The notes under the pieces: model-generated | Database searches by the model: none | Seen by the model: only the letters and a program-made list of their open reading frames with translations | What the model was told of the DNA's origin: nothing | Assembly (NCBI GenBank): GCA_963706595.1 | Contig: OY970166.1 | Location: forward strand, 4,000,001-4,064,000 | Length of the DNA: 64,000 nucleotides | Direction: 5' to 3' | Source of the DNA: an uncultured cyanobacterium | GTDB taxonomy: Bacteria > Cyanobacteriota > Cyanobacteriia > Cyanobacteriales > Nostocaceae | Program-made: the position numbers and the translations under genes | Part shown: one piece after another, positions 39,391-45,810 of the stretch | Position numbering within the stretch: position 1 is the stretch's first letter | Layout of the letters: the number at the start of each line of letters is the position of its first letter

Positions 39391-40371
39391 ATGGAAAAAC
39401 CATCAAATTTATTACTTAAACTCTCGCGCCGTTTGTTTGAAAACCCTGATAAACAAGAACAATTTATTGATGCATTAATTAATCCTCAACCTTTTAATCC
39501 GGCTATTCTTTGGTGTCAAAGCAAGCCGAACTTACTGCCTTTTTCAGTAGAATTACCAACAGATTGGCAACCAGATTTTGTAGACCGTCTATTATTAGGA
39601 GAAAAGCCAGGTAAACATCCCCTACATCAACAAGGTTATTTTTATTGTTTAGATTTTTCTTCTATATTTGCAGCTTCAGTTTTATTAACAATTCCTCAGC
39701 CGGTGCGTTTGGTTTTTGATATGTGTGCTTCCCCAGGAGGAAAGAGTGTTTTCGCCTGGAAAGCTTTGCAACCTGCTTTACTAATTAGTAATGAAGTGAT
39801 TGGTAAACGTTTGGGGATGCTAATTTCTAATTTAAAGCGTTGTCAAATTAGCCCTTGTACCGTAGTTAATCGAGATTCTAGTATTTTTGCCGACAACATT
39901 CCTTTGTCTAGTGATTTAGTCATAGTAGATGCGCCTTGTACTGGGCAATCTTTACTAGCTAAAGGGGAAACAGCACCTGGATGTTTTCATCCCACAGCTA
40001 TTAATAGAAGTGCTAATCGGCAAAAAAGAATTATCGCTAATTCGGCTCAATTAGTTGCACCACAAGGCTATCTAGCTTATATGACTTGTACATACTCGGC
40101 TGAGGAGAATGAGCAGGTTTGTGAATGGTTTTTGTCAAAGTTTCCTCAGTTTCAAGCAGTGAGAGTTGATTATTTAGATGAATATCAGTCACACTTAAGT
40201 AATATTCCTTGTTATCGGCTTTTTCCTCAAGATAGGCTGGGTGCAGGTGCATTTACGGTGCTTTTTCAAAATACTGAAGTTGGTAAAGCACAAGAAATAA
40301 ATTTAGACGATTTGTCTGGGGTTTGGATGAATACGAACCACAGAGGCGCAGAGAACGCAGAGAATTTTTAG
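39391..40371 (+). CDS. RsmB/NOP (RsmF-like) m5C RNA methyltransferase
   Basis: DMCASPGGKS, VDAPCTG, YMTCT..EENE motifs. Confidence 0.9.
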   Translation: MEKPSNLLLKLSRRLFENPDKQEQFIDALINPQPFNPAILWCQSKPNLLPFSVELPTDWQPDFVDRLLLGEKPGKHPLHQQGYFYCLDFSSIFAASVLLTIPQPVRLVFDMCASPGGKSVFAWKALQPALLISNEVIGKRLGMLISNLKRCQISPCTVVNRDSSIFADNIPLSSDLVIVDAPCTGQSLLAKGETAPGCFHPTAINRSANRQKRIIANSAQLVAPQGYLAYMTCTYSAEENEQVCEWFLSKFPQFQAVRVDYLDEYQSHLSNIPCYRLFPQDRLGAGAFTVLFQNTEVGKAQEINLDDLSGVWMNTNHRGAENAENF

Positions 40372-40629: not shown

Positions 40630-43095
40630 ATGTCAGAAGTGCCTACTCAGTGTCAAAATTTATCAGAGCAAGTTGAGTCTATATTACAATTTTTACAGCA
40701 AGAACCATCTTTACGTTCTCAAGATATTACATCTGTACAAACTTCTCTAGGAAAAGTGATTTCTCCAAAGTTTGAAATTGTATTTGCAGGTGCATTTAGT
40801 GCCGGGAAGTCGATGCTAATTAATGCCCTCCTAGAACGGGAGTTGTTATATAGTGCCGAAGGACACGCTACAGGTACGGAATGCAAAATTGAGTATGCGG
40901 AACTAAATAATGAACGGGTGGTTTTAACGTTTTTAAGTGAAGTTGAAATTCGGGAACAAGCTAGTTTTCTGTGTCAACATTTGGGATTTCAAACAGCCGT
41001 TAATATTAATCAAGTTGAAGTAATTAGCCTCTTGCGTCAAGGTTGTGAAACGATTATTCAGCACGAAGGTGGGGAAAGTAAATCGGAACGTGCAAAACAA
41101 GCGAAGGCTTTAATATTGCTGCTGGATGGGTATGAGGCAAACCGTCAACATATTCATACTATGAATAATGCTACATACTCGATGGAGCAATTTAACTTTT
41201 CTAATCTCAAAGAAGCTGCTGGATATGCGCGGCGTGGGAGTAATAGCGCTGTGTTAAAAAGAATTGAATATTACTGTAACCATCCCCTTTTGTCAGATGG
41301 TAATGTGATCATCGACACGCCAGGAATTGATGCACCAGTAGAGAAGGATGCACAGTTAACTTACGACAAGATTCAACATCCAGATACATCGGCGGTGGTG
41401 TGTGTGTTAAAACCTGCTTCTGGTGGTGATATGACGAAGGAAGAAACGGAACTTTTAGAAAAAATGCGAAACAATGCGGGAATACGCGATCGCATCTTCT
41501 ACACCTTCAATCGCATTGACGAAACTTGGTATAATACCCAGTTAAGGCAGCGTTTAGATGATTTAATTAGTCAACAGTTTCGAGATGCGAGTCGGGTTTA
41601 TAAAACCAGTGGTTTACTCGGATTTTACGGTAGTCAGATTAAACGCACTACTGAAATAGATAGATTTGGGTTAGATTCTGTTTTTACAGAGAGTGTTAAA
41701 AGTCTCAATGGCACAGAAGAAACACCGCAATTTATTAATGAGTTTAACCGCTATTGTGTTAATTCTGGCAAACTTTCACATAGACAGTTTCCCATTTCCA
41801 TAAGCAATGCTCAAACTGCCAATCAAAATTATGTGAGAATTTTAAATGAGCATGGAACGCCTTTAATTAATCAGCTAATTCAAGATAGTGGAATTGAGGA
41901 ATTTCGCACAGCTATTACTAAATATTTAGTAGAAGAAAAGCGTCCACAGCTTTTCAAAAATCTGGCTGATGATTTGGAAGATATTTGCATTAAATTAAAA
42001 AAACATTATCAGGGTGAACAAAGGAATTTAGATAGTCAACCGCGAGAAATTGAGGCGATGAAGGCGCAAGAGTTACAACGCCTGAATCAGCAGCTACAGC
42101 AAGTTGGTAAAGATTTTAGCCAGCATATTGCAGAAGAAGTCAACCAAATAATTAATAATTCCTGTGATGCTTTTGAATCAGATTTTCGACAACTACAATC
42201 ACGGATGATTCGGCGTTTAGATGAATTGCTAGATACCTTTTCTGTGGCTGATGCTTATCGACGTTCTACTATTAGTCATCCCCGAAATGCAACTGCACCT
42301 TTACTAGCTATTTTAGTCGAGGCATTTTATTATTTAGCAAATCAATTAGAAGATATCTTGATAGATTCTTCTCAACAATTAGTTGCTAATTTGTTTCAGC
42401 GATTAATGGATAAAATTCGCAAGTCAGAATACTATCGTCAATTATATCGGTTGTTAGGTAATGATGGCGGCATTGAAAAAGAGGTAAAAATTTTAGAAAA
42501 ATCAGTATCTTTAGCGTTAGTAAGTGCAGCTAGTATAGAATGCGATCGCTTCGTCAGAGAAAGTCCTAGATTTTATGATGAAGGCACGTTTTCTATATAT
42601 CAATTTCGCCAAACTTTGCTGCAAACTTCCCAAGGTTACGATTCTGAAAGCATAGTAGAAGCTGAACCAGCAATTAGACAATTGTTAAAGTTAGATTTTG
42701 AACCAAAAGTTTCTCAAACAATCCGTAAAACCTTCCGCCAAACTATCAGCCAAATCCTCAAAAGTCAGTTATTACCTATGGCGGAACAGCAAGCAGATGA
42801 TATTTTGCAGCAGTACCCCCAAGCGCGGGCTTATTTAGAGCAAAGTCTGCAACAAGAAGCTGAGGAAAAAATTCTGAATAATCGCCGCTTATTGAGTGTT
42901 GTTGAACAAAAAATTGCGGCTTATAATTCCGCCGTTTCGCAAATCAATAATTGCTTACAGTCTATGCAGTTATATGATCATTTATTGCCTGAAATTGGCA
43001 ACGAAGATGTTCAACCACTAGTAACTGATGCAGAAGTTGTTGAATTTGCGAATAAAGATACTTTTATTGCTGATGGTTTAGTCAGCAATATATAG
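40630..43095 (+). CDS. Bacterial dynamin-like GTPase (SynDLP-like)
   Basis: G1 GAFSAGKS, G3 DTPG, G4 NRID, long helical stalk, HPRN motif, Cys near both termini. Confidence 0.88.
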   Translation: MSEVPTQCQNLSEQVESILQFLQQEPSLRSQDITSVQTSLGKVISPKFEIVFAGAFSAGKSMLINALLERELLYSAEGHATGTECKIEYAELNNERVVLTFLSEVEIREQASFLCQHLGFQTAVNINQVEVISLLRQGCETIIQHEGGESKSERAKQAKALILLLDGYEANRQHIHTMNNATYSMEQFNFSNLKEAAGYARRGSNSAVLKRIEYYCNHPLLSDGNVIIDTPGIDAPVEKDAQLTYDKIQHPDTSAVVCVLKPASGGDMTKEETELLEKMRNNAGIRDRIFYTFNRIDETWYNTQLRQRLDDLISQQFRDASRVYKTSGLLGFYGSQIKRTTEIDRFGLDSVFTESVKSLNGTEETPQFINEFNRYCVNSGKLSHRQFPISISNAQTANQNYVRILNEHGTPLINQLIQDSGIEEFRTAITKYLVEEKRPQLFKNLADDLEDICIKLKKHYQGEQRNLDSQPREIEAMKAQELQRLNQQLQQVGKDFSQHIAEEVNQIINNSCDAFESDFRQLQSRMIRRLDELLDTFSVADAYRRSTISHPRNATAPLLAILVEAFYYLANQLEDILIDSSQQLVANLFQRLMDKIRKSEYYRQLYRLLGNDGGIEKEVKILEKSVSLALVSAASIECDRFVRESPRFYDEGTFSIYQFRQTLLQTSQGYDSESIVEAEPAIRQLLKLDFEPKVSQTIRKTFRQTISQILKSQLLPMAEQQADDILQQYPQARAYLEQSLQQEAEEKILNNRRLLSVVEQKIAAYNSAVSQINNCLQSMQLYDHLLPEIGNEDVQPLVTDAEVVEFANKDTFIADGLVSNI

Positions 43096-43145
43096 CATTT
43101 TCCATCTTATAACTATTCATCCCGTCTTCCGTTTGTACAACAAAA

Positions 43146-43178
43146 AGATCCCCGACTTCTTCAAGAAGTCGGGGATCT
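43146..43178. repeat. 33-bp dispersed palindrome (copy 2 of 3)
   Basis: Same arms as 34853. Confidence 0.9.
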
Positions 43179-43218
43179 AAGCTTCTCGGTTCCGCCACAT
43201 AATCAATCAGGCTAATTG

Positions 43219-43464
43219 ATGAATAAAACGCCGCGAATTCGTATCCCGCCAGAAGTCAGACAATATGTATTTCAAAGAGATAAATACCAATGCCAAAGCT
43301 GCGGTAAAACCAAGTTAGAAACTGACTTGACAATCGATCATATCATCCCCCTAGCCCGTGGCGGTCAAAACGATATGAGCAATTTACACACCCTCTGCTT
43401 GACTTGCAACCAGCAAAAAACCGATAAACTTGACCCTCGATTCCGGCGACATTTTCAGAATTAG
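43219..43464 (+). CDS. Small stand-alone Zn-binding HNH endonuclease
   Basis: RD...CQSCG...IDHIIPLARGG...NL..LCLTCN..K. Confidence 0.9.
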   Translation: MNKTPRIRIPPEVRQYVFQRDKYQCQSCGKTKLETDLTIDHIIPLARGGQNDMSNLHTLCLTCNQQKTDKLDPRFRRHFQN

Positions 43465-43541
43465 GAATTTTCCAAAAATAAATTATGCCTTTTTAGTTAA
43501 TTGTGTTACATTAAGTAGCGAGATGTAATACATAGGCTTTG

Positions 43542-43629
43542 TTATGGTTTGGGTTCTATATACCCGACTGGCGCGCCAACCACTGGATTGACCGTGTAGT
43601 ACAAAGTAACTTGTAACGTCACACCATAA
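43542..43629 (+). ncRNA. Putative ~90-nt multibranch ncRNA (RNA A)
   Basis: Closing stem TTATGGT/ACCATAA enclosing hairpins TTGGGT/ACCCGA, TGGC/GCCA and TGAC/GTCA. Confidence 0.5.
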
Positions 43630-43633
43630 ACCC

Positions 43634-43704
43634 CAAAAGTTAGCTCACTGGTAGAGCAATCGAACAAAATCGATTTGTTACAGGTTCGATTCCTGTACTT
43701 TTTA
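43634..43704 (+). ncRNA. tRNA-like RNA with non-canonical 6-nt anticodon loop
   Basis: AAAAGT/ACTTTT acceptor, T8A9, GCTC-ACTGGTA-GAGC D arm, ATCGA-ACAAAA-TCGAT anticodon arm, ACAGG-TTCGATT-CCTGT T arm. Confidence 0.85.
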
Positions 43705-43748
43705 CCCACCCTGAAAAGGTGAAACACACTAACCTGAAAAGGTTACTA

Positions 43749-44030
43749 GAAACTCTGTAATGTAGGCTTACTAGCGCTCATCACTTGTGGTGTTCGGTAG
43801 TAGCAGTAAAGAAGCCAGCGCGAATGTTCTCTCCCTGACTTGAGTCTGTCCCTTCGGTTTTCCTATCCGGAGTTCTGGAACTGGCTAACCGAACGGCATA
43901 TTTGAGCGTTGTTGTCTGTTTCTAGATTACCCTTGGGTAGTTTAGGAATAAGTAGCAGCCTTCTTAATCCAGTTTTGGATGTGAAATTTGCCCGCAACTG
44001 AACTGTAAAAACCTACATTTGCGGAGTTTT
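43749..44030 (+). ncRNA. Putative ~280-nt multibranch structured ncRNA (RNA B)
   Basis: 18-bp end-to-end helix plus at least five internal helices; many pairs are G-U on the + strand. Confidence 0.65.
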
Positions 44031-44103
44031 AAAATTTAGTGTAGTATGTGTAGTATTGACTCAAAAGTTATCTCCTAATTAAGTTATTGGCACTAATGCC
44101 TGA

Positions 44104-44210
44104 TATAGCGGTTATCAGTTAAGTGAGATACAAGAACCCCACCCCCAACCCCCTCCGGTGCAAGCGAGGAGGAGGCTATGATCTACTTCATTGAAGTGGA
44201 TACCGCCATA
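44104..44210. mobile_element. MITE-like element (TATAGCGGT...ACCGCCATA); related inverted copy at 51056-51143
   Basis: Imperfect inverted ends; shared core aagaaccccacccc...gcaagcgagga...gctatgat. Confidence 0.65.
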
Positions 44211-44223
44211 ACTCATTTTACCT

Positions 44224-45810
44224 ATGTTTTTATTAAACTTTTTTCGTCGGCTAAAACTGCCGAAATTATCTATGAAAATTTCTTTGTGGAAAACTTTTTA
44301 TATCAAGCCTAACGAAATTGGGATTTTGTATCAACGCAGTGATTTTCATAAAATCTTACAACCTGGTACTTACAACTATTTTGGTCCGCACTGGAATGTG
44401 AAAACCTATGATCTCAATCAACCAGAGTCTCAAATTGAGAACTTGGAATTGTTGGTGCGAAATCATAGTGCAGAGTTACAGCCACATCTCTTAGTAGTTA
44501 AAACAGCATTTAATGAAGCGGCTTTAGTTCGCTGTGGTCAAAATTGGGTCAGTGTTGCGCCTAATGAATTACGAGCTTTTTGGCGTGGTTTTATTGAGGT
44601 AGAATCCCATATTTTCAACTTAGATGAAAACTTGGAATTACCTGCGGAATTTGTGCGGCAACTACGGGTAAATACCTTAAATGGCATCAAAAAATTCCAA
44701 ATTTTTGAGTACGAAATTGGTTTGCTGTACGTGCAGAATAACTTTGTGCGCCCCCTAGTAACCGGAGAGTACGCTTTTTGGGCTGTAGATAGAGATGTTT
44801 CAGTGCGGACTCTCAGCCGGATGATTCCAAATCCAGAGTTTCCCTTAGAAGATATCTTGATTTCACAACATCCCGATTTTGTCGCAGCTTATTGCAAAAC
44901 TGTCGAATTACAAAATCAACAAGTTGCGATCGCCCGCTATCAAGGTAAAGTTATTAGTATCCTCGCCCCATGTAGTCGCAAGCTGTTTTGGCGAGATGTA
45001 GAGGTAGAAGTCATTGACATCAGCACCGATGCTAAATTGTCATCTGATTTAGTTGCTGAGTTGGTTGTGGGTTTACCTGAAGCGGTAATTTTGAGCCTCA
45101 ATAGTTTACATATTGCCTACATACCCCCGCAGTATGTGGGACTGTTGTACATCAATCAAGAGTTTCAAACACAACTCCAGTCCGGGAATCATGCTTGGTG
45201 GGTGTTTGGGCGTTCTGTAAACACAGAAATCTTTGACCTCCGCCAACAAACGATGGAAGTATCCGGCCAAGATATTTTATCCAAAGATAAAGTGCCTTTG
45301 CGCCTCAACTTAACTGCTGGCTACCGCATCACCGACCCACTCACAGCCAAAAACCGTTTATCGGATTTAACTAGCTACTTATACAAAGAGTTGCAATTTG
45401 CTTTACGTGGTGCTGTAGGTGAAAAAACCCTAGATACCTTACTAGAAGACAAAGGAGCCATTGATAGCAGTATTTTTGATTACATTCACCAAAAAACCGC
45501 CGACTATGGCATAGAAATAGATTCGGTTGGAGTCAAAGATATCATTCTCCCTGGTGAGATTAAAACGATTTTAGGGAAAGTAGTAGAAGCAGAAAAAATC
45601 GCCCAAGCTAACGTCATCCGTCGTCGTGAAGAAACTGCTGCTACCCGCAGTATGTTAAATACTGCCAAAGTAATGGAAGATAACCCCGTAGCATTGCGTT
45701 TAAAGGAGTTAGAAGTATTAGAACGAATTGCTGAGAAAATTGAGAAAATCCAAGTCAATGGAAGTTTAGATAGTATTTTGACCGACTTAGTGCGGATGAA
45801 TCGCGATTAA
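44224..45810 (+). CDS. SPFH/Band-7 (slipin-like) protein with five N-terminal beta repeats and C-terminal coiled coil
   Basis: DLRQQ.MEVSGQDILSKDKV.LR.N, GVKDIILPGE, AEK.AQAN.I.RREETAATRS.LNTAK motifs. Confidence 0.9.
   Translation: MFLLNFFRRLKLPKLSMKISLWKTFYIKPNEIGILYQRSDFHKILQPGTYNYFGPHWNVKTYDLNQPESQIENLELLVRNHSAELQPHLLVVKTAFNEAALVRCGQNWVSVAPNELRAFWRGFIEVESHIFNLDENLELPAEFVRQLRVNTLNGIKKFQIFEYEIGLLYVQNNFVRPLVTGEYAFWAVDRDVSVRTLSRMIPNPEFPLEDILISQHPDFVAAYCKTVELQNQQVAIARYQGKVISILAPCSRKLFWRDVEVEVIDISTDAKLSSDLVAELVVGLPEAVILSLNSLHIAYIPPQYVGLLYINQEFQTQLQSGNHAWWVFGRSVNTEIFDLRQQTMEVSGQDILSKDKVPLRLNLTAGYRITDPLTAKNRLSDLTSYLYKELQFALRGAVGEKTLDTLLEDKGAIDSSIFDYIHQKTADYGIEIDSVGVKDIILPGEIKTILGKVVEAEKIAQANVIRRREETAATRSMLNTAKVMEDNPVALRLKELEVLERIAEKIEKIQVNGSLDSILTDLVRMNRD

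What the first reader, a model, noticed from the sequence alone, without database searches (positions are those of the whole stretch)
43634..43704. tRNA mimic with perfect D and T arms but a non-decoding anticodon loop
The elbow elements are canonical (T8, A9, GCTC/GAGC D stem with GG, ACAGG-TTCGATT-CCTGT). The anticodon loop is only 6 nt (ACAAAA) and lacks U33, the acceptor stem is 6 mostly A-U pairs with a C1-U72 mismatch, and the discriminator is followed by CCCA. All stems remain paired, which suggests selection for shape rather than decay. It could be an RNase P/RNase Z processing signal, since RNA A ends 4 nt before its 5' end, or a decoy or substrate for anticodon nucleases and repair enzymes.
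Basis: partly seen in the sequence, partly recalled or inferred. Interest (0 to 1): 0.8.

Follow-up and report, generated by a model that had tools for sequence, protein, structure and literature searches.

The report
tRNA-shaped domain inside large cyanobacterial RNA
The tRNA look-alike is real, but it is one module of a roughly 480-base folded RNA that filamentous cyanobacteria keep directly upstream of one particular cage-type (SPFH, vault-protein-like) gene, so it is neither a decoder nor a decaying tRNA gene.

Summary
Observation confirmed. Window 43634-43704(+) scores as tRNA in Rfam (48.3 bits) and ARAGORN does not call it. It has a 6-nt loop ACAAAA, a C1xU72 mismatch and A73 followed by CCCA.

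It is not a free-standing gene. It lies between a conserved 5' domain (from about 43547) and a conserved 3' domain (43751-44028, closed by a long-range helix). Helices in both domains covary across 67 orthologues. Rfam has no family for either domain.

One to three tRNA-like units occupy this position in other genera. Ours is "unit 2". In 68 relatives its loop is 7 nt in 67 and 8 nt in 1, CUCAUAA is the commonest loop (32), and the anticodon triplet varies freely. All four other Nodularia genomes with the element carry different triplets. "Unit 1" loops are 4, 5, 7 or 9 nt. The stems, the elbow loops, an unpaired 1:72 and an encoded 3' CCA are conserved.

The 5' domain and a full-length copy of the downstream 528-aa SPFH gene co-occur exactly in a phylum-wide sample: 9 of 151 genomes have both, 142 have neither. 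The predicted protein fold resembles stomatin and, over its whole length, major vault protein.

Best reading: a shape-selected tRNA-derived domain of a new structured RNA tied to this protein. Whether RNase P/Z cuts the unit out is open.

The parts
43501..43534 (+). Conserved motif upstream of the RNA (TTGTGTTACATTAAGTAG..GTAATACAT), promoter- or operator-like. A related motif follows the RNA's 3' end in other genera.
   Evidence: Conserved in same-genus alignment A1 and across genera. Related downstream motif seen. The consensus promoter scan found no + strand site here, so the role is inferred.
43547..43630 (+). 5' domain of the RNA: hairpin P1 43550-54/43562-66, invariant CUGG 43568-71, helix P2 43571-76/43592-97, then a variable spacer. 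The spacer ends in AAACCCC, which looks like the 3' remnant of a lost 'unit 1'.
   Evidence: RNA contigs from two studies both begin at 43547 (a weak hint of the end). Covariation in P1 (UA/CG/UG, GC/AU) and P2 (UA/CG) over 67 sequences. Alignment A4 and model R1. R1 gives one hit per positive genome except G055, which has 2.
43634..43704 (+). tRNA-like domain ('unit 2'): full cloverleaf with canonical D and T loops, a 6-bp acceptor helix and unpaired 1:72.
43664..43669 (+). 6-nt anticodon-position loop ACAAAA, the variable tip of the domain.
   Evidence: Orthologues have 7 nt (67) or 8 nt (1) out of 68. The variant AAAAAA occurs in RNA run X2.
43705..43708 (+). CCCA after A73. Most other genera have CCA at this position.
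   Evidence: N73+CCA in 49 of 68 unit-2 copies, against 1 of 43 genuine tRNA genes of this genome.
43707..43745 (+). Two small hairpins: CACC-CUGAAAA-GGUG at 43707-21 and UAACC-UGAAAA-GGUUA at 43730-45. They link the tRNA-like domain to the 3' domain.
   Evidence: Hairpins lie at the same position in other genera, e.g. ACCC-UGUCC-GGGU.
43751..44028 (+). 3' domain, closed by the long-range helix 43751-66 x 44012-28. Inner helix 43844-50 x 43895-901. Conserved CUUAAUCCAGUU at 43963-74.
   Evidence: RNAalifold on 67 sequences and on 31 sequences (40 pairs, 17 with compensatory change). Whole-RNA MFE z = -3.65. RNA contigs cover up to 43992.
44027..44040 (+). U/A-rich tract directly after the closing helix, probably the terminator tail.
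   Evidence: The function is inferred.
44224..45810 (+). 528-aa SPFH (Band_7, slipin-like) gene. The model shows five 5-stranded beta repeats, an SPFH domain and a long helix. It is the strictly co-occurring neighbour of the RNA.
   Evidence: Pfam Band_7; synteny; co-occurrence; structural model and fold matches.

Best explanation
The element is a tRNA-derived structural domain of a roughly 480-nt structured non-coding RNA, not a tRNA gene. The RNA runs from about window 43547 to about 44030. Its order is 5' domain, tRNA-like unit, two small hairpins, then a 3' domain closed by a long helix followed by a U/A tract.

The RNA lies directly upstream of an SPFH protein gene with a vault-protein-like architecture, on the same strand, and is gained and lost together with it.

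The tRNA-like unit works by shape. Its four helices, the D-loop/T-loop elbow, the unpaired 1:72 and a 3' CC(A) are kept. The anticodon-position loop is a free tip that decodes nothing, so its triplet and even its length drift. The 6-nt loop here is one such state.

I commit to the reading that the unit stays in the mature RNA as an architectural module or as a handle for a tRNA-recognising partner. This RNA would then act together with, or on, the neighbouring SPFH protein.

Shown: the anatomy, conservation, covariation, gene linkage, and RNA contigs that bridge the unit.

Inferred: that the unit is retained and not excised, who the partner is, and any RNA-protein contact.
For: 1. Part of a larger conserved RNA. 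The whole intergenic stretch 43465-44100 is about 90% conserved among 5 Nodularia genomes. The same module order recurs across genera.

2. Flanking domains are structured. Helices in the 5' and 3' domains covary (one search gives 40 pairs, 17 compensatory).

3. Number of units. My own cloverleaf parser found 1, 2 or 3 units in 64 of 67 RNAs (21, 38 and 5) and none in 3. Two of those three (L043, L086) hold a degenerate or chimeric unit by eye. L053 was not inspected.

4. Shape selected, decoding not. The cloverleaf is 95.3% paired with 8 doubly changed pairs. D and T loops are nearly invariant, while loop positions 33-36 carry 1.0-1.6 bits of entropy. Unit-2 loops show 24 different sequences in 68 copies. 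Unit-1 loops are 4 nt (6), 5 nt (15), 7 nt (27) or 9 nt (1). The five Nodularia genomes have five different loops.

5. Unlike host tRNA genes. 1:72 is unpaired in 56 of 62 distinct rows with letters there. CCA is encoded in 49 of 68 units against 1 of 43 genuine tRNA genes.

6. RNA evidence. Contigs from RNA libraries of two studies span 43547-43992 without a break at either end of the unit. A relative's homologous 550-nt contig has mean word depth 788.

7. Linkage to the gene. In a phylum-wide sample of 151 genomes the 5'-domain model hits 9. Exactly those 9 have a full-length SPFH orthologue, 0.6-1.3 kb downstream on the same strand. Among 61 relatives, 20 have the RNA and 17 a full-length gene; none of the 41 without the RNA has a full-length gene.

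8. Tolerated damage fits a scaffold role. Variants include degenerate D and T loops (L035 first copy, L043, L050), a 30-nt insertion in the T loop (L055) and a unit1/unit2 fusion (L086).
Against: No raw reads were available, so the contigs cannot show how much of the RNA is cut at the unit boundaries. Contigs can bridge even when precursors are rare.

Encoded CCA, and the layout in which the A of unit 1's CCA is position 1 of unit 2, would fit precise RNase P/Z excision as well as retention.

Nearly half of unit-2 copies keep a perfectly canonical CUCAUAA loop (32 of 68). Pure neglect of the loop does not predict this.

No RNA-protein contact was tested. The linkage could be regulatory and not physical.

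In one genome (G020) the RNA and the gene lie 789 kb apart, and the gene has an internal stop.

The RNA's 5' and 3' ends rest only on a weak hint: the same contig ends in two studies.
Confidence: 0.55

Rival explanations
1. Punctuation signal. RNase P cuts at the 5' side and RNase Z or an exonuclease cuts at the 3' side of each tRNA-like unit. The primary transcript is split into a 5'-domain RNA, one to three tRNA-sized CCA-ended RNAs and a 3'-domain RNA, as with mascRNA and MALAT1 or mitochondrial tRNA punctuation (both recalled).
For: The elbow and the acceptor/T-arm stack are intact. N73+CCA is encoded in 49 of 68 unit-2 copies and N73+CC in 47 of 49 unit-1 copies. In tandem units the A of the first CCA is position 1 of the next unit. 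A single cut there would leave a mature CCA end and a 6-bp acceptor, which explains the unpaired 1:72.
Against: Contigs in three RNA runs cross the unit or its 3' boundary unbroken, including a homologue at depth 788. The conserved anticodon stem and D arm are not needed by RNase P/Z (recalled). Variants without a proper elbow persist. CCA after N73 blocks RNase Z in many bacteria (recalled; cyanobacterial enzymes may differ).
Confidence: 0.25
2. Cis-acting leader. The whole RNA is the 5' leader/attenuator of the SPFH gene. The closing helix plus U tract acts as a terminator, and the tRNA-like unit binds a tRNA-binding factor that sets read-through.
For: The RNA is always upstream of the gene on the same strand. 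A long closing helix is followed by a U/A tract. Contigs stop before the ORF (weak).
Against: A conserved promoter-like motif with TATAAT lies between the RNA and the ORF in many genera. Inserted elements or a whole ORF separate them in several genomes (L035, L072, and a MITE in this window). No site complementary to the anticodon or covarying with N73 was found.
Confidence: 0.08
3. Ordinary or spare tRNA genes co-transcribed with flanking RNA. Under this reading the copy in this window is a strain-specific pseudogene.
For: Rfam scores reach 58-65 bits for units in other genera. 32 of 68 have a canonical CAU loop, and ARAGORN calls many of them as tRNAs. The body resembles the genome's tRNA-Asn.
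Against: The anticodon differs between orthologous sites even within one genus, and includes AGA, UAG and other unusual triplets. 1:72 is unpaired in 56 of 62. Unit 1 commonly has 4-5-nt loops. Encoded CCA is unlike the host's tRNA genes. The unit is lost together with the SPFH gene, which is not expected for a needed tRNA.
Confidence: 0.05
4. Decoy or substrate for anticodon nucleases, with diversifying selection on the anticodon loop.
For: Among the 4 other Nodularia genomes all 3 anticodon positions carry 3 alleles. Only 8 of 166 four-fold degenerate sites of the adjacent gene do. A further loop variant occurs in a near-identical strain.
Against: Other unconstrained sites of the same RNA are equally fast, so a high local mutation rate in a heavily transcribed RNA is a simpler cause (inference). 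About half of all genera keep CAU. No nuclease, repair or defence gene is a conserved neighbour, and the SPFH protein has no PADLOC hit. The rate test is post hoc and rests on 4 genomes.
Confidence: 0.04

Closest known systems
tRNA-like domain of bacterial Y RNA (YrlA)
   Same: A tRNA-shaped module with real D and T loops embedded in a larger non-coding RNA. That RNA is encoded next to its protein partner and tethers proteins. (Recalled; only the start of the abstract of 10.1101/312249 was seen, in the listing.)
   Different: No Rfam Y RNA match. The unit here has a full anticodon arm and an encoded CCA, and comes in 1-3 copies. The neighbour is an SPFH protein, not Ro/Rsr.
tmRNA tRNA-like domain
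   Same: tRNA mimicry inside a large, abundant, structured bacterial RNA.
   Different: ARAGORN finds no tmRNA here. There is no tag reading frame, and the tRNA-like part is internal and complete, not formed by the RNA's two ends.
mascRNA / MALAT1-type tRNA-like processing signals and mitochondrial tRNA punctuation
   Same: A non-decoding cloverleaf with a free 'anticodon' loop placed between functional RNA segments. This is the basis of the main rival. (Recalled.)
   Different: Cleavage is not shown here. Contigs bridge the unit. The system is bacterial.
Cyanobacterial trn operon / tRNA arrays
   Same: Extra tRNA-type genes in heterocystous cyanobacteria, some with odd anticodon loops. (Start of the abstract of PMC10272220 in the listing; the rest recalled.)
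   Different: Those are arrays of about 26 diverse tRNA genes on a megaplasmid. Here 1-3 units of near-constant body sit inside a conserved structured RNA on the chromosome. No plasmid match was found.
T-box leaders
   Same: A long leader-like RNA upstream of a gene in which the tRNA elbow and NCCA matter.
   Different: T-boxes bind a tRNA; this RNA contains one. There is no Rfam T-box hit, no specifier-like site and no partner covarying with N73.
Vault particle (major vault protein + vault RNA) and OLE RNA with its membrane protein partners
   Same: A dedicated structured RNA paired with a cage- or membrane-scaffold protein. The neighbour's model aligns to MVP over beta repeats, shoulder and cap helix. 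That vaults consist of MVP, vPARP, TEP1 and vault RNA was read in 10.1101/872010, part 1 of 3. OLE is recalled.
   Different: No binding or cage has been shown. The protein is 528 aa with about 5 repeats and is closer to stomatin (Z 17) than to MVP (Z 10-12). The RNA is unrelated in sequence to any Rfam family.

Membership tests
Canonical tRNA (Rfam RF00005) | Covariance-model score above the gathering threshold | tested here: met
   48.3 bits against 29. It is the lowest of the 44 hits in the genome.
Canonical tRNA (Rfam RF00005) | 7-nt anticodon loop with U33 and a purine at 37 | tested here: not met
   The loop is ACAAAA, 6 nt. ARAGORN makes no call.
Canonical tRNA (Rfam RF00005) | Anticodon conserved at the orthologous site (stable decoding identity) | tested here: not met
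   Five different loops in 5 Nodularia genomes and 24 loop sequences in 68 unit-2 copies.
Canonical tRNA (Rfam RF00005) | Fully paired 7-bp acceptor stem, and a 3' trailer like the host's other tRNA genes | tested here: not met
   1:72 is unpaired in 56 of 62. CC(C)A is encoded here and CCA in 49 of 68 relatives, against 1 of 43 host tRNA genes.
Canonical tRNA (Rfam RF00005) | Aminoacylation and use on the ribosome | not testable with these tools
   Needs acid-urea gels or tRNA sequencing.
tmRNA | tRNA-like domain formed by the two ends, plus a tag reading frame | tested here: not met
   ARAGORN finds no tmRNA in the window. There is no Rfam tmRNA match.
Bacterial Y RNA (YrlA) | Match to the Rfam Y RNA models | tested here: not met
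   cmscan at E up to 10 over 42500-45000 gives only tRNA and chance hits. Seven related loci give only tRNA.
Bacterial Y RNA (YrlA) | Ro60/Rsr gene nearby | tested here: inconclusive
   Pfam found no Ro/TROVE domain on the 7 ORFs scanned around the element or on the 33 ORFs of related loci. The genome was not searched for Rsr.
T-box riboswitch | Specifier complementary to the anticodon, and a UGGN bulge covarying with the discriminator | tested here: not met
   No aligned site matches the anticodon complement in more than 7 of 32 non-CAU sequences. No column complements N73 in more than 54% of sequences.
tRNA-like processing signal (mascRNA type) | Cleavage by RNase P at the 5' side and RNase Z at the 3' side | not testable with these tools
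   Only assembled contigs were available. They bridge both boundaries.
Vault-like ribonucleoprotein | Shell protein with MVP architecture (beta repeats, SPFH-like shoulder, cap helix) | tested here: inconclusive
   Model pLDDT 79. Foldseek MVP hits at E 5e-13 to 4e-9 over 566-654 alignment columns. VIA Z 10.2-12.1 with rmsd 7-16 A, model residues about 86-486 (one row from 24) against MVP residues about 218-692. Pfam Vault repeat was not hit. Stomatin scores higher (Z 17).
Vault-like ribonucleoprotein | Closed cage assembly that holds a small RNA | not testable with these tools
   Needs purification and cryo-EM or RIP.
Cyanobacterial trn operon (tRNA array) | Long array of many different tRNA genes | tested here: not met
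   1-3 units, always between the same 5' and 3' domains.

The most novel reading that the evidence does not exclude
The RNA and the neighbouring protein form a bacterial vault-like ribonucleoprotein. The protein would be a soluble SPFH/MVP-like cage protein: five beta repeats, shoulder, cap helix, a basic disordered N-terminus and no clear membrane helix. It would come with its own dedicated, abundant, structured RNA. The embedded tRNA-like domains would be the packaging or docking handle. This would be a prokaryotic counterpart of MVP plus vault RNA, found in filamentous cyanobacteria.
Probability: 0.12. Interest if true: 0.92.

Novelty: new variant of a known kind. Interest (0 to 1): 0.72.

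Why it matters
tRNA mimicry inside larger RNAs is known from tmRNA, Y RNAs, viral 3' ends and mascRNA. This case differs in three ways.

First, the carrier is an undescribed structured RNA of about 450-600 nt. Rfam 15 has no family for it, and four full-text searches found no paper on it.

Second, it carries one to three complete cloverleaves whose anticodon loops are evolutionarily free.

Third, it is inherited as a cassette with a single protein gene of the SPFH family that folds like a shortened major vault protein.

This gives a concrete, testable RNA-protein pair in culturable cyanobacteria (Nodularia, Nostoc, Calothrix, Fischerella and others). It is a natural series of variants for asking what a tRNA shape is recognised for when decoding is irrelevant: loops of 4-9 nt, degenerate elbows, insertions and fusions.

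There is also a practical point. Units with CAU or other anticodons are likely to be annotated as extra tRNA genes in these genomes.

Tried and rejected
**Other RNA families.** cmscan at E up to 10 on 42500-45000 and gathering-threshold scans of 7 related loci gave only tRNA and chance hits.

**T-box-like pairing in cis.** No site complementary to the anticodon and no column covarying with N73.

**Paralogues in the own genome.** blastn finds one copy only. The nearest sequence is tRNA-Asn at 78% over 54 nt.

**Mobile origin.** No blastn match in plasmids or phages.

**Defence system.** No PADLOC hit for the SPFH protein. The weak LeoA and HNH hits fall on non-conserved neighbours. NCBIfam gives only a sub-threshold HflK match.

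**HNH association.** The upstream gene varies (HNH, QueF, FUR, MerR, flavin reductase and others), so it is not part of the system.

**Promoter scan.** No + strand consensus site upstream of the RNA.

**Expression.** RNA-library contigs gave no cover over the HNH ORF or the SPFH ORF. Run X12 covered only the repeat at 44104-44210. Lack of cover is not evidence.

**Literature.** Four searches found nothing on this RNA.
- PMC4734099 has no occurrence of 'tRNA' in its main text (term search only).
- PMC3610870 was read as passages only. Its three held supplements contain none of 'band 7', 'SPFH', 'stomatin' or 'dynamin', and no start-site table is held.
- PMC9950537 was read as passages only and lists Synechocystis SPFH proteins, not this one.
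- 10.1101/872010 (part 1 of 3 read) concerns true MVP homologues in Oscillatoriales, Myxococcales and Cytophagales and no bacterial RNA partner.

**Earlier findings of this scan.** Nothing returned.

Full report
**1. Observation**

It has a 7-position acceptor with a C1xU72 mismatch, U8 A9, D stem GCTC/GAGC with loop ACTGGTA, anticodon stem ATCGA/TCGAT with a 6-nt loop ACAAAA, variable loop TTGTT, T arm ACAGG-TTCGATT-CCTGT, and A73 followed by CCCA.

Rfam's tRNA model matches these exact coordinates at 48.3 bits against a gathering score of 29. ARAGORN does not call it. It is the weakest of the 44 tRNA-model hits in the 5.57-Mb genome and has no paralogue there.

The cloverleaf is also the single-sequence minimum-energy fold, z = -2.08.

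**2. It has orthologues, and their loops differ**

A DNA search of 61 related genomes found the region in 24. Four same-genus genomes are 84-92% identical over about 330 nt.

In the same-genus alignment the tRNA-like body is invariant except for the top of the acceptor, one variable-loop base and the anticodon loop. The loop reads AC-AAAA, CTAGAAA, CTCATAA, CTTCTAA and CCTCCAA in the five genomes.

The record titles place these relatives in Nodularia.

It does not make the element a plain pseudogene, because every relative has a different anticodon on an otherwise frozen body.

Contigs from RNA libraries of two studies reproduce the 6-nt loop. One carries a C>A change inside it, giving AAAAAA.

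**3. The unit is one module of a larger conserved RNA**

Across genera the intergenic region has a fixed order:
- a conserved upstream motif;
- a 5' domain, consensus GGUUUGGGUUCUGUAUACCCGACUGGUGCGCCAACCUCUGGAUUGAGCGUAUACCGC;
- one to three tRNA-like units;
- small hairpins;
- a 3' domain of about 280 nt;
- a U/A tract;
- an SPFH gene.

I fetched 80 loci around orthologues of that gene and parsed the upstream DNA with my own cloverleaf script. Of these, 67 loci (including the window) had the 5' and 3' motifs in order. The parser found 1, 2, 3 or 0 units in 21, 38, 5 and 3 of them. Two of the three zeros (L043, L086) hold a degenerate or fused unit by eye. L053 was not inspected.

Three unit types recur:
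- 'Unit 1' has acceptor GUUUGAU/AUCAAAC.
- 'Unit 2' has acceptor xxAAAGU/ACUUUxx. This is the type in the window.
- 'Unit 3' has a body like an initiator tRNA.

In Nodularia the spacer before the unit ends in AAAC-CCC, the 3' end of a lost unit 1.

**4. The flanking domains are structured**

RNAalifold on 67 sequences gives the following, each with compensatory changes:
- two 5' hairpins;
- a 13-16-bp long-range helix closing the 3' domain (window 43751-66 with 44012-28);
- an inner helix (43844-50 with 43895-901).

The tool's own run on 31 sequences gives 40 pairs, 17 of them with compensatory change. The whole RNA folds with z = -3.65.

No Rfam family other than tRNA matches, either here or in seven related loci.

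**5. What is and is not conserved in the unit**

On 69 unit-2 sequences (65 distinct rows), 95.3% of pair cells are standard pairs and 8 pairs change on both sides. No shuffle out of 500 reaches the observed values, and slid registers give 28-46%.

Conserved features:
- The D stem, GG, and the T loop UUCRAxU are invariant or nearly so.
- Position 1:72 is unpaired in 56 of 62 rows.
- D-loop position 15 and variable-loop position 48 change together: U with A, G with C, C with U. This suggests a kept tertiary pair.

Variable features:
- The loop triplet carries 1.0-1.6 bits per position.
- 32 of 68 unit-2 loops are CUCAUAA. The rest are 23 other sequences, including the anticodons AGA, UCU, UCC, UUU, GAU, CGU, GUU, CAG and UAG, and a recurrent UGUAUCG.
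- Unit-2 loop length is 7 nt in 67 copies and 8 nt in 1. The window's 6-nt loop is unique among them.
- Unit-1 loops are 4 nt (6), 5 nt (15), 7 nt (27) or 9 nt (1).

After the discriminator, CCA is encoded in 49 of 68 unit-2 copies and CC in 47 of 49 unit-1 copies. Only 1 of the 43 genuine tRNA genes of this genome encodes CCA (which corrects my first count). In tandem units the A of the first CCA is position 1 of the next unit.

The nearest genuine tRNA is tRNA-Asn(GUU). It shares the D arm and the ATCGA/TCGAT stem.

**6. Rate of change in the loop**

Among the four other Nodularia genomes each of the three anticodon positions has three alleles. Only 8 of 166 four-fold degenerate sites of the adjacent gene do. 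Pairwise divergence at those sites is 14-28%.

Taken at face value the triplet changes faster than synonymous sites, roughly 1e-4 by the cube of 8/166. The test is post hoc and rests on four genomes. One multi-base event per lineage would also produce this pattern.

Other unconstrained positions of the same RNA are similarly variable. A raised mutation rate in a heavily transcribed RNA, combined with no constraint, is the simplest reading. That is my inference.

**7. Expression**

RNA-library contigs were laid on 43300-44400.
- X1 gave one contig covering 43547-43992 with 3 differences.
- X2 gave 43547-43835 and 43842-43992.
- X3 gave 43688-43952.
- X1 and X2 come from different studies and share both contig ends, with no loose end. 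The tool rates this as only a weak hint of real RNA ends.
- The contigs run through both borders of the unit.
- A 550-nt contig in X1 at mean word depth 788 is a relative's homologue. Its loose end reads a D arm, the same anticodon stem and a loop beginning CUAUU.

Contigs cannot give ratios of cut to uncut RNA.

**8. Link to the neighbouring gene**

The gene upstream of the RNA varies between genera. The downstream SPFH gene does not.

I built a covariance model of the 5' domain.

In an even sample of 151 genomes of the phylum it hit 9. A protein search of the same 151 genomes found full-length orthologues (61-100% identity) in exactly those 9, each 0.6-1.3 kb downstream of the RNA on the same strand. 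Three genomes with distant partial homologues (36-47%) lack the RNA.

Among 61 relatives, 20 have the RNA and 17 have a full-length gene. The exceptions are:
- a truncated RNA without the gene (G019; sequence);
- an RNA on a 1.1-kb contig (G027);
- a gene split into two pieces (G023);
- G020, which counts among the 17 but has RNA and gene 789 kb apart, with an internal stop in the gene.

None of the 41 genomes without the RNA has a full-length gene. Within Nodularia, 4 of 10 other genomes have both and 6 have neither.

In many genera a TATAAT-containing motif follows the RNA's closing helix. It resembles the motif upstream of the RNA. This suggests two transcription units with shared control. 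That is my inference.

**9. The protein**

Pfam finds only Band_7 at residues 300-470. The feature search names the protein slipin/stomatin-like.

The AlphaFold model, built on 26 orthologues with mean pLDDT 79, shows five 5-stranded beta modules (residues 22-338), the SPFH domain and a long helix.

Fold comparisons:
- Foldseek ranks stomatin first (E 2e-14, about 220 alignment columns). Major vault protein follows over 566-654 columns (E 5e-13 to 4e-9).
- VIA-align gives stomatin/SPFH Z 12.6-17.4. It gives MVP Z 10.2-12.1, with rmsd 7-16 A, for model residues about 86-486 (one row from 24) against MVP residues about 218-692.

There is no clear transmembrane segment (maximum hydropathy 1.6). 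The first 21 residues are basic, +5.

The architecture is therefore MVP-like, but the protein is closer to stomatin. Assembly into a cage and RNA binding are untested.

**10. Mechanism**

Decoding is excluded as the selected function, for the reasons in sections 2 and 5.

Two mechanisms remain.

(a) The unit stays in the RNA as a four-way-junction or L-shaped module, or as a handle. Supporting this:
- the bridging contigs, including the abundant homologue;
- survival of variants with degenerate elbows, a T-loop insertion and a unit fusion;
- conservation of arms that processing enzymes do not need.

(b) The units are cut out by RNase P/Z. Supporting this:
- the encoded CCA;
- the head-to-tail register of tandem units;
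- the unpaired 1:72.

I put (a) at about 0.55 and (b) at about 0.25. A leader/attenuator role, a real tRNA and a nuclease decoy are less likely.

**11. Novelty**

tRNA-like domains in larger RNAs are a known kind. This carrier RNA, its multiplicity of complete cloverleaves and its exclusive pairing with an SPFH/MVP-like gene are not in Rfam 15. They are also not in the papers found by four full-text searches.

The preprint on bacterial MVP homologues (10.1101/872010, part 1 of 3 read) treats different proteins and mentions no bacterial RNA partner in the part read.

Noticed in passing
window 44104-44210: A roughly 107-nt repeat with well over 100 copies in this genome (80-96% identity), inserted between the RNA and the SPFH start codon. 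It is absent from the same site in the four other Nodularia genomes, so it looks like an active MITE-type element. RNA contigs of several runs match it.
   Followed up: partly
window 43216-43464 (+): An 82-aa stand-alone HNH_5 endonuclease ORF just upstream of the RNA. Its best NCBIfam similarity is to the HNH part of IscB, below cut-off. It is present upstream in Nodularia, and a longer HNH ORF is present in one other genus (L012), but it is not a conserved neighbour.
   Followed up: partly
window 40630-43095 (+): An 821-aa dynamin-family GTPase with weak PADLOC LeoA/LeoBC similarity. An RsmB/F-like m5C RNA methyltransferase lies at 39391-40371. Neither was checked for linkage to the RNA cassette outside Nodularia.
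   Followed up: no
window 43146-43178 (-): A perfect 15-bp GC-rich hairpin followed by a T run on the minus strand (terminator-like). It overlaps a sub-threshold Rfam NsiR1 match (18 bits against 39).
   Followed up: no
own genome (G000), whole: ARAGORN and the Rfam tRNA model find only two CAU tRNAs, no initiator-type tRNA-fMet and no tRNA-Leu(UAA). These may carry introns or lie in missing sequence (completeness 94%).
   Followed up: no
L019:1481-1570, L021:1488-1577, L023:1487-1576, L024:1481-1571: A second family of tRNA-like elements in four other cyanobacterial families. The body resembles the one studied here (AGCUCA..GAGCAAUCGA.. stem) with variable anticodons (UGU, CUA, AUU, CAG). It is set at the tip of a long flanking inverted repeat (AGAAAGCUUACAUAC ... 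AGCUUUCU). Rfam reports only tRNA.
   Followed up: partly
L035:532-1015 and 1176-1777; L094 and L101 (two copies each); L053, L056, L100: Some genomes carry two copies of the RNA in tandem or about 1.3-1.8 kb apart. The second is often a divergent 'type II' form with loop UGUAUCG and, in some, D and T loops that have lost their tRNA signature together. In L094 a 357-aa ORF of unknown family lies between the copies.
   Followed up: partly
L055:1380-1450; L047:216-2152; L086:703-1040: Natural lesions of the RNA. There is a roughly 30-nt hairpin insertion inside the T loop of unit 2 (Calothrix sp. NIES-2100). About 1.9 kb is inserted inside the 3' domain (Tolypothrix campylonemoides). A recombinant unit has the 5' half of unit 1 and the 3' half of unit 2, with a mismatched acceptor.
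   Followed up: partly
window 44030-44060 and the same place in L041, L051, L058, L063, L072: After the RNA's closing helix a conserved AAAAUAUAAUGUAGUAUAUGUAUUAC motif occurs. Its GUAUUAC part is the inverted form of the GUAAUAC upstream of the RNA. It may be a shared promoter or operator for the RNA and the SPFH gene.
   Followed up: partly
L035:1855-2500 and L072:1830-2500; L011:2194-2769: In a few genera an extra ORF of about 190 aa lies downstream of the RNA. In L035 and L072 it sits between the RNA and the SPFH gene and was seen only as sequence, with no family scan. The ORF scanned in L011 carries the YdeI/OmdA 'bacteriocin-protection' domain.
   Followed up: no
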